A stretch of 7,580 nucleotides of DNA from a virus (Duplodnaviria > Heunggongvirae > Uroviricota > Caudoviricetes): the IMG/VR virus record IMGVR_UViG_2671180631_000001; one strand, given 5' to 3'. Of this stretch, positions 1 through 7,580 are shown piece after piece. The position numbers and the translations under genes are program-made. Position 1 is the first letter of the stretch. Every line of letters starts with the position of its first letter. Below the pieces are notes generated by a model that did not search any database, was not told the origin of the DNA, and saw only the letters and a program-made list of their open reading frames with translations.

Positions 1-34
1 CTCCAATGACTAGTCTAAAAACTAGTATTAAGAC

Positions 35-54
35 TATCACTTATTTAAGTGATA
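35..54. repeat. Perfect 9-bp inverted repeat TATCACTTA-tt-TAAGTGATA (operator-like 20-bp dyad) in AT-rich sequence upstream of the endolysin
   Basis: Read directly: 35-43 tatcactta, 44-45 tt, 46-54 taagtgata; the right arm is the exact reverse complement of the left arm. The existence of the repeat is certain, its function is unknown. Confidence 0.6.
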
Positions 55-108
55 CTGGTTGTCTGGAGATTCAGGGGGCCAGTCTAGTAAGGCTGCGAGA
101 GGTGAATA

Positions 109-500
109 ATGTCGCCATCATTACGCAAGGCTGTTGCAGTTGCTATTGGTGGCGGGGCTGTTGCTATAGCATCTGTGTTAATCACTGGCCCAGGTGGTAA
201 CGATGGTCTGGAAGGTGTCAGCTACATACTATACAAAGATATCATTGGTGTATGGACTGTATGTCACGGACACACCGGAAAAGACATCATGCCTGGTAAA
301 ACGTATACCGAAGCAGAATGCAAAGCTCTCCTGAATAAAGACCTTGCCACTGTCGCCAGACAAATTAACCCGTACATCAAAGTCGATATACCGGAAACAA
401 CGCGCGGCGCTCTTTACTCGTTCGTTTACAACGTGGGCGCTGGCAATTTCAGAACATCGACGCTTCTTCGCAAAATAAACCAGGGCTATATCAAAGGCGC
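109..500 (+). CDS. SAR endolysin (phage lysozyme, P21 R-like), 3' end lost in the N-gap
   Basis: ATG at 109 in a TAATG stop/start overlap. N-terminal Gly/Ala-rich weakly hydrophobic segment ([18 protein letters not shown]) typical of a signal-arrest-release domain, followed by a T4-lysozyme-like catalytic region (GLEGVSY...[16 protein letters not shown]). The frame runs straight into the N run at 501, so about 35 C-terminal codons are missing if the full length is ~165 aa as in P21 R. Confidence 0.9.
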
Positions 501-551
501 NNNNNNNNNNNNNNNNNNNNNNNNNNNNNNNNNNNNNNNNNNNNNNNNNNN
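501..551. other. Assembly gap or masked segment (51 N)
   Basis: Uninterrupted run of n at 501-551. Flanking gene content shows the true missing length is much larger than 51 bp (see findings). Confidence 0.95.
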
Positions 552-734
552 AAATGCCCTGTGCCATCCTCAGCCGAAACCTCCAGCGCCTCCGGCATGG
601 GCAATGATGCCACCGTCGAACTCTCTCCAGTTGCTGGACGAAACGTTCTCGGTATCCGGGACGGAATCATCAGCGACCAGACAGCATTGAGAATGCTTCA
701 GGAGTACATCAGGATCCAATGCCTTGGGGGGTAG
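552..734 (+). CDS. Rz-like i-spanin, C-terminal 60 codons only (5' part lies in the gap)
   Basis: The frame starting at 552 translates to KCPVPSSAETSSASGMGNDATVELSPVAGRNVLGIRDGIISDQTALRMLQEYIRIQCLGG, ending at TAG 732-734. This matches the pattern of the lambda Rz C-terminus as I recall it (…ASGVDNAASPRLADTAERDYFTLRERLITMQKQLEGTQKYINEQCR), including the penultimate conserved Cys. Confidence 0.8.
   Translation, partial: KCPVPSSAETSSASGMGNDATVELSPVAGRNVLGIRDGIISDQTALRMLQEYIRIQCLGG
553..690 (+). CDS. Rz1-like o-spanin (proline-rich lipoprotein), 3' part, embedded in the +1 frame of Rz
   Basis: The frame starting at 553 gives NALCHPQPKPPAPPAWAMMPPSNSLQLLDETFSVSGTESSATRQH, ending at TGA 688-690. 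CxxxPKPPAPPAW matches the lambda Rz1 core (QCVKPPPPPAW). It lies wholly inside the Rz frame, the classic embedded-spanin architecture. Start codon and lipobox are in the gap. Confidence 0.8.
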   Translation, partial: NALCHPQPKPPAPPAWAMMPPSNSLQLLDETFSVSGTESSATRQH

Positions 735-822
735 CGGTAATTTTACTCATTATCCTTCAAATCAGATTCTGTTGTCAGAGGAATGGGGGAAGCTGGATTC
801 GCAAGAGCTTTTTATGGGCAGT

Positions 823-1335
823 TTAGCTAAAAAAAGGCAACACGAAGCTAAAACTACCAACATAAAGTGCTGACCAGCTAGCAGCTGAAATCAGACTCAC
901 TGTATACACTTTCACTGGATGAAGTTGCAACATTCCTGCCACCAAAGGAGCAATATAACGCAGCACGGCGATAAAGCGCGAAGTGAAAAGTATTGACACA
1001 GAGTTATTTTGCAACTGAAGGCGAACCCGTTCTATTGTATTGGAACGGCTTGATATTATACATGCAAGTTGAGGGATATGCCCAATTATTATACCAAGAT
1101 GGTAATTAACGATAGTACCGCACCATGCGCCACTCATGACCGTGATTCCAGCTTCCCATGGTGAAAGAGTCGTCTTGCTGACTGTAATTACAGTGGCCAT
1201 CATAATTGATGCTGGTGGCAATATCGCCGAAATGAGTAAAGTGGATTTTGTGAACGCTATTATAAAAAGAAGCCCCCATAGGCGATATGGATGAAGTACA
1301 AAATAGTTCATCAAAGCATTTATCCACTCCATCAA
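823..1335 (-). CDS. DedA/YqaA-like (COG1238-type) polytopic inner-membrane protein; AT-rich cargo (moron) gene
   Basis: 170-codon minus-strand ORF with stop TAA (reverse complement of 823-825). TTG at 1335 is immediately followed by ATG at 1332, with AAGGAAAG 7-10 nt upstream. The product is hydrophobic with a YqaA-like pattern (ILPPAS...SPWEAGI...GAWCGTIVNYHLGIIIG...). Sampled 60-nt blocks are about 35-45% GC against about 55% in the phage structural genes. Family assignment is from recalled similarity, not a search. Confidence 0.6.
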   Translation of the reverse strand: MMEWINALMNYFVLHPYRLWGLLFIIAFTKSTLLISAILPPASIMMATVITVSKTTLSPWEAGITVMSGAWCGTIVNYHLGIIIGHIPQLACIISSRSNTIERVRLQLQNNSVSILFTSRFIAVLRYIAPLVAGMLQLHPVKVYTVSLISAASWSALYVGSFSFVLPFFS

Positions 1336-1529
1336 TGTCTTTCCTTCTGTGAATTTTTCTTTGCTATTTAACCGTGATACGACTTAATTTAGGCTTAAAC
1401 ACCTTACATTTACAAGGTACTCCTGTGGGGGGCCCTGCCACGGAGCGTCGCAGGAGTGAGTGATGAGGAAGAATTAAAGCAACCTATTGTGACAGGCAGC
1501 GATAACAGTAAATCACAGGAAGCATAATC

Positions 1530-2294
1530 ATGGCAAAACCGGACTGGGAGGCCATCGAATCGGCATACCGGGCCGGAGTCCTTAGCCTCCGTGATATAGG
1601 CGAGAAATACGGCGTTACAGAAGGGGCTATCAGGAAGAGGGCCAAAAAGCTTGGTTGGGCACGCAGTGGCGGTACGCAGGTTTGCAAAAATGGTACGCAA
1701 AAAAGGAAAGTGCGTACCAGCAGAAAGCCTGCCATTACTGGCCTTACACAAAAAAGTACGCAACTAAAAACAGAATCTACACCGGATACGAAACCGATAC
1801 GCGGAATGCGTACCGATCCCCCGACTAACCCATTCCAACCCGGTAACCAGCAGGCATTAAAACACGGTGGTTATGCCCGTCGCCTTCTGCTCAAAGATGA
1901 GGTGATAGAGGACGCTAAAGCGTTGACGCTCGAGGACGAATTATTTCGCCTTCGTGCTAACAACCTTGTCGCTGCAGAGAATATTGGTCGGTGGTTGGTG
2001 TCGCTGGAAGATGCTAATGGGGACCAGGAAAGGAAGATGCTGATTGAAAATATCAGCGCCGCCGAGAAAGCAATGATGCGCAATACAGTTCGTATTGAGT
2101 CCATCGTTGGCACGCTTGCGACGGTAGGAAAAATATTTGCTGATACAGCCTACCGCAAGGCCGCCACTGATAAGGTGTCTCTGGAGGCTGATCGTCTTCG
2201 CCGTGATGCAGGTATTGATGATGGCAATGGAGAGCGTGACCTCAATGACTTCTACTCTGACATCCAAACCGACGCTGAATCCGGCTTTACGTAG
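1530..2294 (+). CDS. Terminase small subunit (TerS) with N-terminal helix-turn-helix
   Basis: ATG at 1530 with AGGA 9 nt upstream; 254 codons; stop TAG 2292-2294. N-terminal HTH-like segment (SLRDIGEKYGVTEGAIRKRAKKLGW) followed by a basic/Thr-rich linker. Lies immediately upstream of the large terminase subunit. Confidence 0.8.
   Translation: MAKPDWEAIESAYRAGVLSLRDIGEKYGVTEGAIRKRAKKLGWARSGGTQVCKNGTQKRKVRTSRKPAITGLTQKSTQLKTESTPDTKPIRGMRTDPPTNPFQPGNQQALKHGGYARRLLLKDEVIEDAKALTLEDELFRLRANNLVAAENIGRWLVSLEDANGDQERKMLIENISAAEKAMMRNTVRIESIVGTLATVGKIFADTAYRKAATDKVSLEADRLRRDAGIDDGNGERDLNDFYSDIQTDAESGFT
1671..1814. repeat. Cluster of five GGTACGCA / TGCGTACC copies with flanking A-tracts inside terS (candidate pac or TerS recognition site)
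   Basis: GGTACGCA at 1671-1678 and 1692-1699; reverse complement TGCGTACC at 1711-1718 and 1807-1814; GTACGCA at 1756-1762. A5-6 tracts at 1686-1690, 1699-1704, 1750-1755 and 1766-1770. Copies in both orientations argue for a DNA-level rather than peptide-level constraint. Confidence 0.5.
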
Positions 2295-3648
2295 TTTCTG
2301 GACTATGCGGGCACGTAACAAAGTGCTTTATGGTGGTCGGTCATCGTCAAAATCATGGGATGCCGCTGGCATTGCCATATTTCTGTCGAATAAATACACC
2401 CTGCGTTTTTGTTGTGCCCGTCAGATCCAGAATAAAATCGAAGAGTCGGTGTATACCCTGCTCAAAATTCAGATAGACAGGTTTGGTCTGCGGCACCGTT
2501 TCCGTATTCTGAACAACAAAATCATTAACCGGGTTACTGGCTCGGAATTTGTTTTTTATGGATTATGGCGCAACATCGAAGAAATTAAGTCACTGGAGGG
2601 GATCGATGTGTTGTGGCTGGAAGAAGCCCACGCACTGACGGAATACCAGTGGAAAATTCTGGAGCCAACGATCCGTAAAGAGGGTTCGGAATGCTGGTTC
2701 ATATTCAACCCCGGACTTGTTACTGATTTCGTCTGGCGCAACTTCGTTGTTGATCCGCCCGAAGGCACTCTCATCCGCAAAATTAACTATGACGAAAATC
2801 CGTTTCTGTCTGACACCATGCTTAAGGTTATCGACGCGGCGCGACGCCGTGATCCGGATGGTTTTAAACATGTGTATGAGGGCGTTCCGGAGTCTGATGA
2901 TGATGCGGCAATCATCAAACTGTCTTGGATAGAAGCCGCAGTGGATGCGCACAAAACGTTAAATTTCGAACCCAGTGGAAGAAAGCGTATTGGCTTTGAC
3001 GTGGCTGACAGTGGTACAGATAAGTGCGCTAACGTTTACCGTCACGGATCCGTTGTTTTCTGGGCCGACGAATGGAAGGCCAAAGAAGATGAATTACTGA
3101 AGAGCTGCCAGCGTACTTATCAGGCGGCGCTGGAGCGTGAAGCAGATATTGTTTACGACTCTATCGGTGTTGGTGCGTCTGCCGGTGCTAAATTCTCTGA
3201 AATTAACGCTGACCGGAAGAGCGAGAACGCATACGCGCGACGTGTGAATTACCAGAGGTTTAACGCCGGTGCTGGTGTGCATGAGCCAGATGACGAGTAC
3301 AACGGCATCCCCAACAAAGACTTTTTCGCAAATCTTAAGGCTCAGGCATGGTGGCTGGTGGCTGACCGTTTCAGAAATACGTTTAACGCCATTAACAACG
3401 GAGAACAGTATCCTGTGGATGAGCTGATCAGCATAGATTCTCGTTGTCCGTTGCTTGAAAAGCTGAAACTGGAACTGACAACACCTCATCGTGATTTCGA
3501 CCGTAACGGACGTGTGATGGTCGAAAGTAAAAAAGACCTCGCAAAACGCGAGATACCGTCACCAAACGTTGCTGATGCATTCATTATGGCCTTCGCGCCA
3601 ATCGATACATCGCTGGATATCTGGGAACAGCTGGGGAGACAGGCCTGA
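2245..3648 (+). CDS. Terminase large subunit (TerL), PBSX-type ATPase plus nuclease
   Basis: Open frame from 2137 to TGA 3646-3648. Walker A-like YGGRSSSKS, Walker B-like IDVLWLEEAH, and C-terminal nuclease acidic motifs (FDVADSG, IVYDSIG, NVADAFIMA). The start is ambiguous: ATG 2245 (GGAGAG 10 nt upstream, overlaps the terS 3' end) is chosen here; alternatives are ATG 2218/2221/2227 or ATG 2305 (11 nt after the terS stop, no clear SD). Confidence 0.9.
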   Translation: MTSTLTSKPTLNPALRSFWTMRARNKVLYGGRSSSKSWDAAGIAIFLSNKYTLRFCCARQIQNKIEESVYTLLKIQIDRFGLRHRFRILNNKIINRVTGSEFVFYGLWRNIEEIKSLEGIDVLWLEEAHALTEYQWKILEPTIRKEGSECWFIFNPGLVTDFVWRNFVVDPPEGTLIRKINYDENPFLSDTMLKVIDAARRRDPDGFKHVYEGVPESDDDAAIIKLSWIEAAVDAHKTLNFEPSGRKRIGFDVADSGTDKCANVYRHGSVVFWADEWKAKEDELLKSCQRTYQAALEREADIVYDSIGVGASAGAKFSEINADRKSENAYARRVNYQRFNAGAGVHEPDDEYNGIPNKDFFANLKAQAWWLVADRFRNTFNAINNGEQYPVDELISIDSRCPLLEKLKLELTTPHRDFDRNGRVMVESKKDLAKREIPSPNVADAFIMAFAPIDTSLDIWEQLGRQA

Positions 3649-5114
3649 TGGCACGAAACAAACAAGCCCTGCGGCGAACTGTGCAGGCCACAGCTGATGG
3701 TTATGAGAATTTTATTGCCCGCGTAGGGATGCAGACACCTAACCAGCACTCAGCATCCACCTACCGGGCTAATTTCACCAGTCGTAACCGCATGCTGGTG
3801 GAATGGTCCTATCGTTCATCCTAGATCATCGGCGAAGCAGTCGATGCTATCCCGGATGATATGACCCGCAAAGGCATTCGCATCACTTCGGAAATTGATG
3901 CAAAAGATCGTGGCATTCTCGAATCACAACTGGATGAGTTGCAAATCTGGGATGCGCTGAATGACGTGCTGAAATGGTCGCGCCTCTACGGCGGCGCGGT
4001 GGGTTTCATCATGATTGAGGGGTAGGCACCAATGACCCCGCTGCGACCCGAAACCATCGGTAAGGGCAAGTTTAAGGGGATTCTCCCGCTCGACCGCTGG
4101 ATGGTCGACCCGGCACTGACCCGCCGCATTAAAGATATGGGGCCGGACCTGGGTAAACCTGAGTTTTACGATGTGGTGACCACAGCAACGGGAATTCCTG
4201 CCTGGCGCATTCATCACAGTCGCCTGATTCGCTTTGATGGCGTCACGTTGCCATTTCAGCAGAAGATGACCGAGAACGAATGGGGAATGTCGGTTGTAGA
4301 GCGTATCTGGGATCGTCTTACCGCGTTCGACAGCGCTACTGTCGGCGCGGCGCAGCTGGTCTACAAGGCGCATTTGCGTACCTACAGCGTGGAGAAGCTA
4401 CGCGAGCTTATCGCACTTGGTGGTCCTGCGTATGAAGCGTTGCTGAAGAATATCGACCTGATTCGACAGTTCCAGAGTAATGAAGGCATGACGCTCATGG
4501 ACTCGCGGGATAAGTTTGAAACCCATCAGTACAGCTTCAGTGGTCTGGATGACATCCTTTCGCAGTTTGTAGAACAGATTAGTGGCGCTGTTGGTATCCC
4601 ACTGGTGCGGTTGTTCGGACAGTCCCCGAAAGGATTTTCTACCGGTGATGCAGACCTTGCCAACTATTACGATCGCATCAGTTCGTTGCAGGAGAGGCGT
4701 TTACGTCTTCCGGTGCGGCGGATACTGGACATCATGCATCGTTCGGAACTTGGCAAGCCGCTGCCGGACGATTTCACGTTTGAGTTTAACCCGCTCTGGC
4801 AAATGTCTGATGTCGATCGCTCAACGGTGGCGTTAAACACCACCAACGCAATCAGTACGGCGCTGGGTGATGGTCTGATGACACTGAAAGCCGCTATGAC
4901 TGATTTGCGAGAAAATTCTGACGTAACCGGCATCGGGGCATCCATTACCGACGAGGACATCGAGAATGCCGAAGATGAAGCGCCGCCCGGCATCGGCGAA
5001 CCTGATGACGAACCGCAGGAGCCGTCAGGCGGAAATCCGGTATCGAACCAGCCTACGCAGGATAGCGAGGGCGGTCGGAGACATCGTAAATGGTCGCTAC
5101 GATGGTTCAAATGA
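3648..5114 (+). pseudogene. Portal protein gene interrupted by two in-frame TAG codons (3822-3824 and 4023-4025); longest intact segment is 4032-5114
   Basis: ATG 3648 overlaps the TerL stop (TGATG). One frame runs 489 codons to TGA 5112-5114 except for TAG at codons 59 and 126. The translation across both stops reads as one protein (…NRMLVEWSYRSS*IIGEAVDAIPDDMTRKGIRI…GGAVGFIMIEG*APMTPLRPETIGKGKFKGILPLDRWMVDP…), with an acidic C-terminal tail typical of portals. Confidence 0.8.
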
Positions 5115-5748
5115 CAGTATCACGGAAATTATTGCGGCGCTGGAGCGTTACAGTGAAATCATCACCCCCTGGGCGACAAAGGTCGCGGAAAACTTTACTG
5201 CGGACCTAACCCGGCAGAACGAGAAAGTTTGGCGGCAACACAGCAAGAACATCAGTCGCGAGCTCCGCAATCTTGTGGAAAGCGCTCCTGTGGGCCAGGT
5301 GATGCAATCCATCATCGCCGAACAGGTCAAGTACATCAAATCTCTGCCTCTCGAGGCCGCAGACAGGGTGTACGACATCCAGAACAAAGCGATAGAGGCT
5401 GTTGTCACCGGTGGTCGGGCGGAGCAGTTTGCTAAAGAGATTGCATCTACCGGCGATGTTGCTAAGTCTAGGGCCGATCTGATTGCCCGAACGGAACTGG
5501 GAAGAGCAACGGGCGCGCTGGATATGGCCCGAGCGATAGCTATTGGCTCGGATGGTTATATTTGGCGTACAGCCGATGATGGCGATGTCCGAGATTCCCA
5601 CGATCACATGAAAGGTAAATTCGTCCGCTGGGATTCACCTCCAACTTTGGACGGCATGACCGGCCACGCGGGCGAGCTGCCAAACTGCCGCTGCTATAAA
5701 GAGATCGTGTTTGTTCGCGTTCCATTCGCAATGAAAAGGGCAGCATAA
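4966..5748 (+). CDS. Head morphogenesis protein, Mu F / SPP1 gp7-like minor head protein
   Basis: ATG 4966 with GAGGA 8 nt upstream; 260 codons; stop TAA 5746-5748. Conserved Mu-F-type motif YIWRTADDGDVRDSHDHMKGKFVRWDSPP. The 5' end overlaps the portal 3' end by 149 nt in another frame. Confidence 0.85.
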   Translation: MPKMKRRPASANLMTNRRSRQAEIRYRTSLRRIARAVGDIVNGRYDGSNDSITEIIAALERYSEIITPWATKVAENFTADLTRQNEKVWRQHSKNISRELRNLVESAPVGQVMQSIIAEQVKYIKSLPLEAADRVYDIQNKAIEAVVTGGRAEQFAKEIASTGDVAKSRADLIARTELGRATGALDMARAIAIGSDGYIWRTADDGDVRDSHDHMKGKFVRWDSPPTLDGMTGHAGELPNCRCYKEIVFVRVPFAMKRAA

Positions 5749-5751
5749 CCC

Positions 5752-6972
5752 ATGAAATACTTTTTTGAGACCAGGCTCGGGGAAACCCGATACCGCCTGG
5801 CTGACGGCTCGTTGCTGTGCAAAGACGTGCCGATAGGACGAACAGGTAAGCAGCTCTATGGTGCTGATGACCTGCCAAAACTGAAACCCGATAAGTTCGG
5901 TGAAATAGTCGTCACGCGTTCTCCTGAGCAGGTATTCCATCCGGCCACGCTTGCCTCATTCGAAGGGATGAGCATCACGATCCTGCATCCTGAAGATGAA
6001 AACGGGAATGTGCGGCTGGTAAATCCCGAGAACTGGAAAGAGCTTGCTGTCGGGCACCTCCAGAATGTCCGGCGCGGGACGGGTGAGCAGTCTGATTTGA
6101 TGCTGGCTGACCTTATCGTCAAAGACGAAAGCGCCATTCAGCTTATCGAAGATGGCCTGCGCGAAGTGTCGTGCGGCTATGACGCGGAGTACGAGCAGAC
6201 CGAGCCAGGTAAAGCCGAGCAGGTCGATATTACCGGAAACCATGTGGCTCTTGTCCCTAAAGGCAGAGCCGGAAATCGTTGTGCAATTGGAGACAGAGAC
6301 ACAATGGCAAATCAAAAGAAAAACTGGTGGAACCGCATGCGTGCGGCCATCAAGACAGGAGATGCCGACACCATGAACGAACTGGTGGAGTCGGCTCCCG
6401 CATCGGTTACAGGAGATGAGGGGGATTTGCCGCAGGGCGTTAATCTCAACATCAACCTGTCCCCGCAGCAACCACTACCGGACAAAGCACCAGAGATGGG
6501 CGGAGATCCAACCGGCGACAGTGATGATGACCTCAAAACATTACTGAAAGCCCTGCTGGCTAAGCTGGAAAGAAATGCCACGGGCGATAACGATAATAAG
6601 CCTGACGATAATCCGACCGGTGACGGCGAGGACGATGAAGAGGAAACCACGATTACTGGTGACTCAGCCTGGCGTGCCGAAGTTATCGTTCCGGGTATCG
6701 ATCTGAGCCGTAAGATGAAACCGACCGCGTTCAAACGCGAGGTTCTGGCTTCTGCTGACAAAACGCTGGTTCGCCAGATAGTCGGTGATGCGGATATCCG
6801 CAAATTACCGAAACAATCGGTCGACATGGCGTTTAATGCCGTGTCTGAGGTTGCCAAAGGGCGAAACACCCGCGCCACCACCGGCGATGCACAGCGCCTA
6901 AACATGGGCATGACCAGTATCGCTTCCCTGAACAAACAAAACGCTGAATTCTGGGCAAACCGTAAAGGGTAA
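5752..6972 (+). CDS. Head scaffolding / prohead-maturation-like protein (conserved N-terminal domain, possibly DUF2213-type, plus acidic low-complexity C-terminal half)
   Basis: ATG 5752, 3 nt after the previous stop; 406 codons; stop TAA 6970-6972. N-terminal about 180 aa globular, with HP...GH...SCGYDAEYE...GNHVALVPKGRAGNRCAIGD. C-terminal half is D/E/G/T-rich with repeated TGD motifs, typical of scaffolding proteins. Position between the Mu-F-like gene and the downstream head genes fits. Family name is from memory. Confidence 0.65.
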   Translation: MKYFFETRLGETRYRLADGSLLCKDVPIGRTGKQLYGADDLPKLKPDKFGEIVVTRSPEQVFHPATLASFEGMSITILHPEDENGNVRLVNPENWKELAVGHLQNVRRGTGEQSDLMLADLIVKDESAIQLIEDGLREVSCGYDAEYEQTEPGKAEQVDITGNHVALVPKGRAGNRCAIGDRDTMANQKKNWWNRMRAAIKTGDADTMNELVESAPASVTGDEGDLPQGVNLNINLSPQQPLPDKAPEMGGDPTGDSDDDLKTLLKALLAKLERNATGDNDNKPDDNPTGDGEDDEEETTITGDSAWRAEVIVPGIDLSRKMKPTAFKREVLASADKTLVRQIVGDADIRKLPKQSVDMAFNAVSEVAKGRNTRATTGDAQRLNMGMTSIASLNKQNAEFWANRKG

Positions 6973-6975
6973 AAA

Positions 6976-7482
6976 ATGAATAATGTATTTCTGTACCGGA
7001 TGCCTGTTGGCATTGCCGGGGCTGTCTCTCGCCCGCAGGACTTAACCGTCGAACCGGTGGTCCTTAAATCCGATAACGCCTTCGCTGCCTATGGCCTGGC
7101 TGGTAAATACGATGATGACGGTTTTTTCGTGCCGCTGGCAGATGGTGATACCGCAGACAAGGTGAAGGGGATCTACGTGCGCCCTTATCCGACCACGTCG
7201 CAGCCGGACATGGTTCGCCAGGTGGGAACAGGCAAGAACTTCCCGGGCGACGCCATGAAGCGTGGCTACGTGACCGTTAATCTCGGTTCTGATTTTGATG
7301 CCAGCACTATCAAAAAAGGCGATCCGGTATACGTTGTCGTCTCCACTGATGAATCCATCAAAGTGCCGCTGGGTGGATTCATGTCCACGTCAGTCAGTGG
7401 CAAAAACGTGGTGCTGACCAACGCTGAATTCACAGGTGCCGGTGATGCTGACGGCAATGCAGAAATTTCCTGGAAGATTTAA
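6976..7482 (+). CDS. Head-module protein of unknown function (possible capsid accessory or decoration protein)
   Basis: ATG 6976 with AAGGG 7 nt upstream, 3 nt after the previous stop; 168 codons; stop TAA 7480-7482. Same strand and tight spacing as the morphogenesis operon. No motif recognised with confidence. Confidence 0.55.
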   Translation: MNNVFLYRMPVGIAGAVSRPQDLTVEPVVLKSDNAFAAYGLAGKYDDDGFFVPLADGDTADKVKGIYVRPYPTTSQPDMVRQVGTGKNFPGDAMKRGYVTVNLGSDFDASTIKKGDPVYVVVSTDESIKVPLGGFMSTSVSGKNVVLTNAEFTGAGDADGNAEISWKI

Positions 7483-7497
7483 GGAACAGACGAATGA

Positions 7498-7520
7498 GGT
7501 GATGCTGCCAACTTACTGAT
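7498..7520 (+). repeat. IS1 left terminal inverted repeat (IRL)
   Basis: GGTGATGCTGCCAACTTACTGAT read at 7498-7520, matching the IS1 terminus as I recall it. Confidence 0.85.
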
Positions 7521-7552
7521 TTAGTGTATGATGGTGTTTTTGAGGTGCTCCA

Positions 7553-7580
7553 GTGGCTTCTGTTTCTATCAGCTGTCCCT
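7553..7580 (+). CDS. insA: IS1 InsA (transposition regulator), 5' partial, truncated by the window end
   Basis: GTG 7553 followed by GCT TCT GTT TCT ATC AGC TGT CCC, giving (M)ASVSISCP, the known InsA N-terminus. Confidence 0.85.

What the first reader, a model, noticed from the sequence alone, without database searches (positions are those of the whole stretch)
1..7580. Overall state: packaging genes intact, lysis and head assembly apparently crippled
TerS, TerL, the Mu-F-like protein and the scaffold-like protein are full-length with good translation signals, whereas the portal has two amber codons, the probable capsid gene is knocked out by IS1, the holin appears to be missing and the lysis cassette has an assembly gap. 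This pattern fits a recently inactivated or cryptic prophage in an IS1-rich host such as Shigella or some E. coli lineages. If the amber codons are suppressed and a capsid is supplied in trans, it could alternatively be a helper-dependent element.
Basis: inference. Interest (0 to 1): 0.4.

Follow-up and report, generated by a model that had tools for sequence, protein, structure and literature searches.

The report
Decayed prophage remnant of Shigella sonnei
The window is a short piece of a dead, insertion-sequence-riddled prophage that sits in every sequenced Shigella sonnei chromosome examined; this is ordinary genome decay, not a working or helper-dependent virus.

Summary
The window is 100% identical to Shigella sonnei chromosomes such as 53G. 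It lies in a remnant of a SEN34-like temperate myophage integrated between modC/ybhA and pgl.

TerS, TerL, the Mu-F-like protein, the DUF2213 scaffold-like protein and a 168-aa cement protein are full length. The portal carries two derived amber codons, W59* and Q126*. Bases 501-551 are an N gap.

Three points need correction:
- The holin is not missing. IS2 (window 1-86, 5-bp duplication GTAAG) sits 23 nt before its stop codon, and the gene body lies on the other side of IS2.
- The IS1 at 7498 is not a simple insertion. It marks a 19,075-bp deletion that removes the capsid gene from its fifth base, every tail gene and ipaH, and it abuts pgl.
- The N gap hides 390 bp in which the endolysin and Rz/Rz1 are full length.

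Further left, the integrase is truncated and the excisionase is gone. The exact truncated portal ORF is indexed in 2,576 blocks of public assemblies, so the ambers are real.

The helper-dependent reading is not supported. This is known Shigella genome decay, of low interest. One minor oddity: all eight polarised S. sonnei-derived point changes fall in the endolysin, Rz or the portal.

The parts
1..86 (-). Terminal 86 bp of IS2. The transposase reads on the minus strand of the window. The element is 1331 bp in finished genomes.
   Evidence: 100% identical to the end of an annotated 'IS3-like element IS2' in NZ_CP065615.1. The full element is L005 4386-5716, flanked by the 5-bp direct repeat GTAAG.
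87..109 (+). Last 23 nt of a class II (phage-21-type) holin gene, cut off from the gene body by IS2. Positions 87-91 (GTAAG) are one copy of the target duplication.
   Evidence: Aligns to L001 20001-20023, the 3' end of the annotated class II holin. The holin body (residues 1-66) lies upstream of IS2 in S. sonnei 53G.
109..500 (+). Endolysin with an N-terminal signal-anchor-release-like segment (annotated RrrD), residues 1-130. The rest lies in the assembly gap. It carries derived replacements P41L and D127Y, plus R136C inside the gap.
   Evidence: PF00959, E 1.1e-31. Full length, 165 aa, in finished genomes. The three replacements are at positions invariant in four relatives.
501..551 (.). 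Assembly gap of 51 N. It stands for 390 bp of real sequence: the endolysin 3' end and the 5' two-thirds of Rz/Rz1.
   Evidence: Window 1-500 equals L005 5631-6130 and window 552-7580 equals L005 6521-13549, both at 100% identity.
552..734 (+). 3' part of the Rz i-spanin gene (stop at 732-734). The 3' part of the embedded Rz1 o-spanin gene is in another frame, ending at 690.
   Evidence: PF03245. PHROG 13 'Rz-like spanin', E 3.8e-73, for the full 156-aa protein. The Rz1 frame has a lipobox-like ...VVGC... motif.
823..1335 (-). DedA/VTT-family membrane protein gene (170 aa). It is an oppositely oriented insert between the lysis and packaging genes, and it is intact.
   Evidence: PF09335, E 9.3e-14. 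Annotated 'DedA family protein' WP_011069285.1 in relatives.
1530..2294 (+). Terminase small subunit, 254 aa, intact. No S. sonnei-derived change.
   Evidence: PHROG 370, E 7.5e-95. Same length as in relatives. The single difference from L001 is synonymous and derived in L001's lineage.
2245..3648 (+). Terminase large subunit (PBSX/Terminase_3 type), 467 aa, intact. No S. sonnei-derived change.
   Evidence: PF04466, E 3.9e-38. PHROG 3717. The differences from L001 are ancestral states shared with the outgroup.
3648..5114 (+). Portal pseudogene (DUF1073 / Phage_portal_3; 488 codons in relatives). TAG at 3822-3824 (W59*) and 4023-4025 (Q126*), plus A308V.
   Evidence: All five relatives have W, Q and A at these positions. 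None of 338 E. coli genomes that carry the gene is identical to the window; the three best differ by about three bases, the number of S. sonnei-derived changes.
5005..5748 (+). Mu-F-like head morphogenesis protein (247 aa from the RefSeq start; a longer ORF starts at 4966). Intact.
   Evidence: PF04233, E 1.5e-18. PHROG 324, E 1.1e-84.
5752..6972 (+). DUF2213 / Pa193_gp24-family protein (406 aa), a putative scaffolding protein. Intact.
   Evidence: PF09979, E 2.8e-42. PHROG 1961, and weaker matches to families labelled head maturation protease. Pa193 gp24 is proposed as a scaffolding protein in PMC11456595.
6976..7482 (+). Capsid cement or decoration protein (168 aa). Intact.
   Evidence: Annotated 'structural cement protein Gp24'. 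PF22758 Phage_cement. PHROG 563.
7494..7497 (+). First four bases (ATGA) of the DUF2184 major capsid gene. Everything after them is deleted.
   Evidence: Homology to L001 ends at 27750, four bases into the annotated DUF2184 gene (PHROG 264 'major head protein', E 1.4e-99).
7498..7580 (+). First 83 bp of IS1 (768 bp in finished genomes). It marks a 19,075-bp deletion that reaches almost to pgl.
   Evidence: 100% identical to an annotated IS1A end. In L005 IS1 is 13467-14234, and it is followed by sequence equal to L001 46826-47750. InsA/InsB domains are called downstream.

Best explanation
The window is the middle of a fixed, non-viable prophage remnant in the Shigella sonnei chromosome.

Origin. 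The ancestor was a roughly 40-kb temperate myophage of the SEN34 type. It had lambdoid early genes, a phage-21-type lysis cassette (class II holin, endolysin, Rz/Rz1), a TerS, TerL, portal, MuF, scaffold, cement and capsid head module, and a contractile tail. It carried an ipaH effector gene and was integrated between ybhA and pgl.

Decay in the S. sonnei lineage:
- IS2 inserted 23 nt before the end of the holin gene.
- IS1 produced, or mediated, a 19-kb deletion from base 5 of the capsid gene to just before pgl.
- Other IS copies truncated the integrase, removed the excision and recombination genes and, in some lineages, inverted the early region.
- Point mutations put two amber codons into the portal and changed invariant residues of the endolysin and Rz.

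The intact terminase, MuF, scaffold and cement genes are most simply leftovers that have not yet been hit, because only about 0.1% divergence has accumulated on this branch.

The window's ends in IS2 and IS1, and its N gap, are the signature of a short-read scaffold that broke at repeats.

Shown: the identity, the architecture, the lesions and their polarity. Inferred: that no particles, excision or packaging can result.
For: - Identity. The window is 100% identical to S. sonnei 53G (HE616528.1) and to six of the nine other S. sonnei places shown; the remaining three are 99.9% or more identical. Public sources name the exact proteins as Shigella sonnei.
- Near-complete relative. E. coli FDAARGOS_944 carries the prophage with integrase, head, tail and ipaHb between ybhA and pgl, at 99.9% identity.
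- IS2 is a simple insertion with the duplication GTAAG. IS1 abuts L001 46826, so 19,075 bp is deleted.
- The whole remnant was mapped in GCA_040188895.1. The integrase retains only L001 4054-4510. L001 4511-11434 is absent. The early region is inverted. Draft contigs also end inside the integrase next to modC.
- The portal changes W59*, Q126* and A308V are derived, with five relatives agreeing.
- The endolysin changes P41L, D127Y and R136C and the Rz changes C18R and A60D are derived.
- The same prophage has decayed independently elsewhere. FDAARGOS_943 has IS2 in TerL and a stop codon in MuF. S. dysenteriae Sd197 has IS1 truncating the portal, while codon 126 is still CAG.
- The truncated portal ORF is indexed in 2,576 blocks of the collection.
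- The only tRNA in the S. sonnei locus is one tRNA-Met/Ile-type gene cut at an IS.
- Literature. Shigella reference chromosomes carry 229-348 IS copies, with IS1 dominant, and IS cause gene disruption and deletions (PMC7373316). SEN34 is a plaque-forming, mitomycin-inducible temperate myophage with lambdoid early genes (PMC5261728).
Against: - Nothing contradicts the remnant reading.
- The nine S. sonnei-branch substitutions are not evenly spread. Three are in the endolysin, two in Rz, three in the portal, one in DedA, and none in TerS, TerL, MuF, scaffold or cement, which make up 58% of the segment. The global G test gives p about 0.02; the chance of zero hits in that 58% is 4e-4, calculated post hoc. 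Pure neutral decay does not predict this.
- Expression, excision and particle production were not, and could not be, tested here.
- The left arm was mapped in full for only one S. sonnei lineage. In 53G-type strains the region just upstream is arranged differently.
Confidence: 0.93

Rival explanations
1. The element is a helper-dependent satellite. It keeps its own terminase and head-assembly accessory genes and relies on a co-resident or infecting SEN34-like phage for portal, capsid and tail, with the ambers read through by a suppressor.
For: TerS, TerL, MuF, scaffold and cement genes are intact and carry no derived substitutions. A related full-length integrase with xis and gam sits at a second locus, next to ddlA-phoA, in some S. 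sonnei isolates, so related phages do visit this host.
Against: - The structural genes were lost through an IS1-bounded deletion from a full-size prophage that is 99.8% identical.
- The integrase at the locus is truncated and the excisionase is absent.
- In some lineages the Q-like antiterminator, and in all examined the late operon, is separated from the packaging genes by IS elements.
- No suppressor tRNA is present in the locus.
- Sister lineages have broken TerL or MuF instead, so no conserved satellite architecture exists.
Confidence: 0.02
2. The lesions are sequencing or assembly artefacts of one draft genome.
For: The window does contain an artefact. The 51-N gap misrepresents 390 bp, and both ends stop inside IS copies, as short-read contigs do.
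Against: - The amber-truncated 360-aa portal ORF is indexed in 2,576 blocks of the collection.
- The ten places shown, all chromosome-sized and including finished chromosomes such as 53G, have the same portal gene split (fragments called at the same coordinates), the IS2 junction and the IS1 junction; seven of them match the window at 100% across the portal.
- The proteins are in UniProt for strain Ss046.
Confidence: 0.01
3. The prophage was actively disarmed and partly domesticated. Loss-of-function changes in host-lethal lysis genes, and in the portal, were favoured by selection, while the packaging and head-accessory genes are kept by purifying selection for some host benefit.
For: - All eight polarised S. 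sonnei-derived substitutions are amino-acid-changing or nonsense, and all lie in the endolysin, Rz or the portal.
- Five of the nine substitutions lie in the 12% of the sequence that encodes the endolysin and Rz (p = 0.002).
- None lies in the other head genes.
- An endolysin of this signal-anchor type can be harmful without its holin (general knowledge of phage 21 and P1 endolysins, not tested here).
- The L001 branch shows an ordinary mix of synonymous and conservative changes in TerS, TerL and DUF2213.
Against: - The counts are tiny (n = 9) and the groupings were chosen after seeing the data.
- The excess of non-synonymous changes is not significant (p = 0.1-0.3).
- Portal loss has no obvious benefit.
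- In a sister lineage TerL and MuF are the broken genes. In S. dysenteriae the scaffold and cement genes are split. This argues against any general retention of these genes.
- The window was selected for study because it contained these lesions.
Confidence: 0.1

Closest known systems
Salmonella phage SEN34 (Brunovirus) and the E. coli phages vB_EcoM-689R2, -611R5, -683R1 and -606R2
   Same: The head module has the same gene order: TerS, TerL, DUF1073 portal, MuF, DUF2213, cement, DUF2184 capsid. Nucleotide identity is 82.8% to SEN34 and 94.5% to the vB_EcoM phages over window 3595-7497. SEN34 combines lambdoid early genes with a contractile tail (PMC5261728), as does the near-complete relative L001.
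   Different: Those are complete phage genomes, and SEN34 is a viable, plaque-forming phage. The window's element has a nonsense-mutated portal, no capsid or tail genes, an interrupted holin and a truncated integrase. The vB_EcoM phages and SEN34 also use a different terminase pair (1623-nt TerL), so only the portal-to-capsid part is shared with them.
ipaH-carrying prophage between ybhA and pgl in E. coli FDAARGOS_944 and VL40 (ipaH-positive, EIEC-like strains)
   Same: Same chromosomal site and same genes. Identity is 99.9% over window 87-7497, with only 10 substitutions.
   Different: That copy still has the integrase, excisionase, holin, portal, capsid, tail and ipaHb, although a few of its genes are also pseudogenes. 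The S. sonnei copy has lost or broken all of these.
IS-driven genome degradation in Shigella (Hawkey et al. 2020, PMC7373316)
   Same: IS1 and IS2 insertions and IS-associated deletions and inversions, together with nonsense mutations, inactivate genes. The lesions differ between lineages.
   Different: That work does not discuss prophages: the word has zero occurrences in its text. This locus is simply one instance of the process it describes.
Phage 21 lysis cassette (S21 pinholin, R21 signal-anchor-release endolysin, Rz/Rz1)
   Same: Class II holin of 71 aa with two start methionines. The endolysin has a hydrophobic N-terminal segment and the E35, D44 and T50 positions. Rz1 is embedded in Rz. 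The resemblance to S21 and R21 themselves is recalled from memory, not tested against their sequences.
   Different: Here the holin C-terminus is replaced by an IS2-encoded tail. The endolysin has three derived replacements at invariant positions, and Rz has two, including an arginine in its membrane anchor.

Membership tests
SEN34-like temperate myophage (head module) | Syntenic TerS, TerL, DUF1073 portal, MuF, DUF2213, cement and DUF2184 capsid genes with nucleotide-level similarity | tested here: met
   The order is identical. Identity is 82.8% to SEN34 and 94.5% to the vB_EcoM phages for portal through cement. The capsid gene is represented only by its first 4 nt.
Defective (cryptic) prophage | Integrated in the chromosome between host genes | tested here: met
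   It lies between modC (with ybhA mostly deleted) and pgl in S. sonnei.
Defective (cryptic) prophage | Loss or inactivation of genes essential for particle formation | tested here: met
   Portal W59* and Q126*. The capsid gene, all tail genes and the fibre genes are deleted (19,075 bp).
Defective (cryptic) prophage | Loss of excision functions | tested here: met
   The integrase is reduced to its C-terminal ~150-160 residues and the excisionase is absent. This is shown in GCA_040188895.1 and CP049179.1, and in draft contigs that end inside the integrase. It was not mapped in 53G-type strains.
Defective (cryptic) prophage | No infectious particles on induction | not testable with these tools
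   Needs mitomycin C induction and plaque or particle assays.
IS1 | 768-bp element with InsA/InsB genes and characteristic terminal sequence | tested here: met
   Window 7498-7580 is 100% identical, and the whole 768-bp copy 99.7% identical, to an annotated IS1A. InsA and DDE_Tnp_IS1 domains are called. No target duplication flanks it, as expected where a deletion adjoins it.
IS2 (IS3 family) | 1331-bp element, two-ORF transposase with frameshift, 5-bp target duplication | tested here: met
   Window 1-86 is 100% identical, and the whole 1331-bp copy 99.3% identical, to an annotated IS2. GTAAG is duplicated.
Phage satellite / helper-dependent element | Own functional integrase and excision system | tested here: not met
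   The integrase is truncated by an IS and no xis is present.
Phage satellite / helper-dependent element | A conserved compact architecture that lacks structural genes by design and recurs in different hosts | tested here: not met
   The gene loss is a lineage-specific IS1-bounded deletion from a full prophage. Sister lineages have different lesions.
Phage satellite / helper-dependent element | Mobilisation by a helper phage | not testable with these tools
   Needs transfer experiments.
Natural amber suppression of the portal | A suppressor tRNA (anticodon CUA) available to the element | tested here: inconclusive
   None is present in the 21-kb S. sonnei locus or in the 48-kb relative. The rest of the S. 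sonnei genome was not available to scan.

The most novel reading that the evidence does not exclude
The S. sonnei-branch point mutations did not fall at random. The host-lethal lysis genes (endolysin, Rz, and the holin via IS2) and the portal were selectively knocked out or damaged. TerS, TerL, MuF, scaffold and cement genes have been kept unchanged because the bacterium uses them, for example to interfere with packaging by incoming related phages or to package DNA with a helper. That would make this a domesticated packaging module rather than mere debris.
Probability: 0.07. Interest if true: 0.4.

Novelty: already known. Interest (0 to 1): 0.1.

Why it matters
The finding matters little beyond correct annotation. 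It is a clean worked example of how IS1 and IS2 activity, together with nonsense mutations, dismantle a prophage in Shigella.

It also shows how a short-read scaffold can mislead. A contig that ends in IS copies and contains an N gap suggested a missing holin, a 'capsid knocked out by an insertion' and a damaged lysis cassette. The finished chromosomes show an IS-interrupted holin, a 19-kb deletion and full-length endolysin and spanin genes.

The only point of wider interest is the skew of the few lineage-specific substitutions towards lysis genes and the portal. If it held up at population scale, it would bear on whether bacteria actively disarm prophages.

Tried and rejected
- Rfam scan of the window at gathering thresholds: no RNA family.
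- Repeat search within the window: no direct or inverted repeats of 16 nt or more.
- Promoter and terminator scan of the DedA region: counts no higher than in shuffled sequence.
- Shared ancestry of the amber with S. dysenteriae Sd197, suggested because that genome also encodes a 360-aa portal product: rejected. There the truncation is caused by an IS1 at window position ~3955, and codon 126 is still CAG.
A partial integrase from the cluster listing was used instead.
- A full-length integrase labelled S. sonnei (P0054) turned out to sit at a different chromosomal site, next to ddlA-phoA, so it says nothing about this locus.
- Searching E. coli complete genomes for the S. sonnei alleles of the lysis cassette and the portal: none is identical (best 99.4% and 99.8%).
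- The large protein-homology searches, structure prediction and metagenome scans were not used, because nucleotide-level matches already identified everything.

Full report
**What the window contains**

Reading the sequence and its ORFs and scanning them against Pfam and PHROGs gives this map, left to right:

| Window position | Strand | Feature |
|---|---|---|
| 1-86 | - | end of IS2 |
| 87-109 | + | last 23 nt of a class II holin gene |
| 109-500 | + | lysozyme-family endolysin with a hydrophobic N-terminal segment |
| 501-551 | . | 51 N |
| 552-734 | + | 3' ends of Rz and of the embedded Rz1 |
| 823-1335 | - | DedA/VTT membrane-protein gene |
| 1530-2294 | + | TerS |
| 2245-3648 | + | TerL, PBSX/Terminase_3 type |
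| 3648-5114 | + | DUF1073/Phage_portal_3 portal, with in-frame TAG at 3822-3824 and 4023-4025 |
| 5005-5748 | + | Mu-F-like protein |
| 5752-6972 | + | DUF2213 (Pa193_gp24 family) protein |
| 6976-7482 | + | 168-aa cement or decoration protein |
| 7494-7497 | + | first four bases of the next gene |
| 7498-7580 | + | first 83 bases of IS1 |

The two IS ends are 100% identical to annotated IS2 and IS1A copies in an E. coli RefSeq genome. DUF2213 is the family of Pseudomonas phage Pa193 gp24, which that phage's cryo-EM study proposes as a scaffolding protein (PMC11456595).

**Where it comes from**

An exact-sequence look-up of the 360-aa ORF that follows the second amber codon found it in 2,576 blocks of the public assembly collection. 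The ten places returned are all chromosome-sized records of S. sonnei; they include strain 53G (HE616528.1). Public sources name the exact protein as Shigella sonnei, including the UniProt entry for strain Ss046.

The window is 100% identical to 53G and to six of the nine other places shown; the other three are 99.9% or more identical. Window 1-500 corresponds to L005 5631-6130, and window 552-7580 to L005 6521-13549. The 51 N therefore stand for 390 real bases.

A window that ends 86 and 83 bases into two multicopy IS elements and contains a mis-sized N run looks like a short-read scaffold broken at repeats. That last point is inference.

**The closest near-complete relative**

Three complete E. 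coli genomes match window 87-7497 at 99.8-99.9% identity. In FDAARGOS_944 the match lies inside a roughly 40-kb prophage between ybhA and pgl. That prophage carries:
- integrase, excisionase, gam, recE and a lambdoid immunity and replication region;
- four tRNA genes;
- holin, endolysin and Rz, then DedA;
- TerS, TerL, an intact 488-aa portal, MuF, DUF2213, the cement protein and a DUF2184 major capsid gene;
- neck, sheath, tube, baseplate and fibre genes;
- the effector gene ipaHb.

The portal-to-cement block is 94.5% identical to four E. coli myophages (vB_EcoM-689R2 and relatives) and 82.8% identical to Salmonella phage SEN34. SEN34 is a mitomycin-inducible, plaque-forming temperate phage. 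It combines lambdoid early genes with myovirus morphology (PMC5261728).

**What the lesions really are**

Aligning 53G with the relative shows four things.

1. *IS2 and the holin.* IS2 is a simple 1331-bp insertion flanked by the duplication GTAAG. Holin codons 1-66 lie immediately on its far side. Only the last five residues are replaced, by a 28-residue tail read from IS2. The holin is interrupted near its end. It is not missing.

2. *IS1 and the capsid.* The 768-bp IS1 is followed directly by sequence equal to L001 46826-47750, which is an invertase fragment and pgl. So 19,075 bp are gone: the capsid gene from its fifth base, every neck, tail, baseplate and fibre gene, and ipaH. All ten S. 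sonnei loci have this junction. No target duplication flanks the IS1. This fits an IS1-associated deletion, although the mechanism is inferred.

3. *The gap.* Within the 390 bp hidden by the N run, the endolysin (165 aa) and Rz (156 aa, with Rz1 in another frame) are full length.

4. *The ambers.* TGG changed to TAG at 3823 and CAG changed to TAG at 4023. A third portal change, A308V, lies at 4570. All five relatives, including SEN34, carry W, Q and A at these positions, so the changes are derived in S. sonnei. None of the 338 complete E. coli genomes that carry this portal gene is identical to the window. The three best matches are 99.8% identical, about three differences, which equals the number of S. 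sonnei-derived changes.

**The rest of the element**

Joining two overlapping loci from one S. sonnei assembly gives the whole remnant:
- modC is followed by a mostly deleted ybhA.
- The integrase is cut to its C-terminal ~150-160 residues by an IS3-family element.
- The block from the integrase N-terminus through xis, gam, recE and rha is absent (L001 4511-11434).
- The immunity and replication region is inverted between IS copies and carries another IS inside it.
- An IS110-family element lies just upstream of the holin.

The architecture seen in the window follows. Draft S. sonnei contigs also end inside the integrase next to modC.

In 53G-type strains the hok-to-antiterminator segment is still in its original orientation, but an IS has replaced three of the four tRNA genes. 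Erosion is therefore continuing and differs between lineages.

The only tRNA left in the S. sonnei locus is a Met/Ile-type gene. There is no suppressor tRNA.

**Independent decay in other lineages**

- E. coli FDAARGOS_943 carries the same prophage with an intact portal, but with IS2 inside TerL and an internal stop in MuF.
- S. dysenteriae Sd197 has a remnant in which IS1 truncates the portal at window position ~3955, with codon 126 still CAG. Its DUF2213 and cement genes are split, and another IS1 cuts the element shortly after the capsid gene.

Different lesions in each lineage are what generic decay predicts. Shigella reference chromosomes carry 229-348 IS copies, mostly IS1. These are documented to disrupt genes and to cause deletions and rearrangements (PMC7373316).

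'Cryptic prophage in an IS1-rich host such as Shigella' is right. The helper-dependent alternative is not supported:
- The missing genes were removed by a lineage-specific deletion from a full-size prophage.
- The element cannot excise.
- Its late genes are cut off from their regulatory region by IS elements.
- No conserved satellite-like architecture exists across lineages.

**One thing that plain decay does not predict**

Polarising every difference with outgroups places nine substitutions on or near the S. sonnei branch:

| Gene | Substitutions |
|---|---|
| Endolysin | P41L, D127Y, R136C |
| Rz | C18R (in the membrane anchor), A60D |
| Portal | W59*, Q126*, A308V |
| DedA | one synonymous change, not polarised |
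| TerS, TerL, MuF, DUF2213, cement | none |

The five genes with no change make up 58% of the segment. Four differences in those genes are instead derived on the relative's branch: two synonymous and two conservative.

A multinomial test against gene length gives p of about 0.02. The chance of no hit in that 58% is 4e-4, and the enrichment in the endolysin plus Rz gives p = 0.002. The excess of non-synonymous changes is not significant.

These groupings were made after seeing the data, n is nine, and the window was picked because of its lesions. I therefore treat this as a weak hint of selection against lysis functions, not as a finding. The broken TerL, MuF, scaffold and cement genes in sister lineages argue against any general retention of the packaging genes.

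**Conclusion**

It is a known kind of IS-eroded prophage remnant, already present and annotated in reference S. sonnei genomes.

Noticed in passing
window 109-734 plus the gap (L005 5739-6703); window 3648-5114: All eight polarised S. sonnei-derived substitutions are amino-acid-changing or nonsense. They fall in the endolysin (P41L, D127Y, R136C), Rz (C18R, A60D) and the portal (W59*, Q126*, A308V). None falls in TerS, TerL, MuF, DUF2213 or the cement gene. The distribution is non-uniform (p about 0.02), but n is tiny and the grouping is post hoc.
   Followed up: partly
window 823-1335 (minus strand): An intact DedA/VTT-family membrane-protein gene sits in the opposite orientation between the lysis and terminase genes. 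The identical protein (WP_011069285.1) is annotated in two EIEC-like E. coli relatives and the gene is called in the S. sonnei loci. It looks like a cargo ('moron') gene. Its function and expression are unknown.
   Followed up: no
L025 1414-1720 versus L001 3089-3837: Most of the host gene ybhA (749 bp) is deleted in S. sonnei next to the prophage end, with no IS at the junction.
   Followed up: no
L025/L006 composite 3441-10782 versus L001 17494-11435: In several S. sonnei lineages the prophage immunity and replication region is inverted between IS3-family copies. An IS110-family element lies upstream of the holin. In 53G-type strains the hok-to-antiterminator segment keeps its original orientation. 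The remnant's left arm is therefore polymorphic within the species.
   Followed up: partly
L032-L035 (S. sonnei draft contigs): Some S. sonnei isolates carry a closely related full-length integrase with xis, an AAA ATPase and gam at a different chromosomal site, next to ddlA, iraP and phoA. This suggests a second, possibly more complete, related prophage in those strains.
   Followed up: no
L005 2320-2393 versus L001 18818-19128: The relative's prophage carries four tRNA genes (Ile/Met-type CAU, Arg UCU, Thr UGU, Gly UCC) upstream of the lysis genes. In S. sonnei 53G an IS has removed three of them and clipped the first.
   Followed up: partly
L001 44525-46351: The near-complete relative carries the type III effector gene ipaHb at the prophage's right end. 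The IS1-bounded deletion in S. sonnei removed this ipaH copy along with the tail genes.
   Followed up: no
L001 29321-29874, 7295-8969, 40675-41931: Even the 'near-complete' prophage in E. coli FDAARGOS_944 has a frameshifted head-tail gene, a truncated recE and a split tail-fibre gene. It may not be viable either.
   Followed up: no
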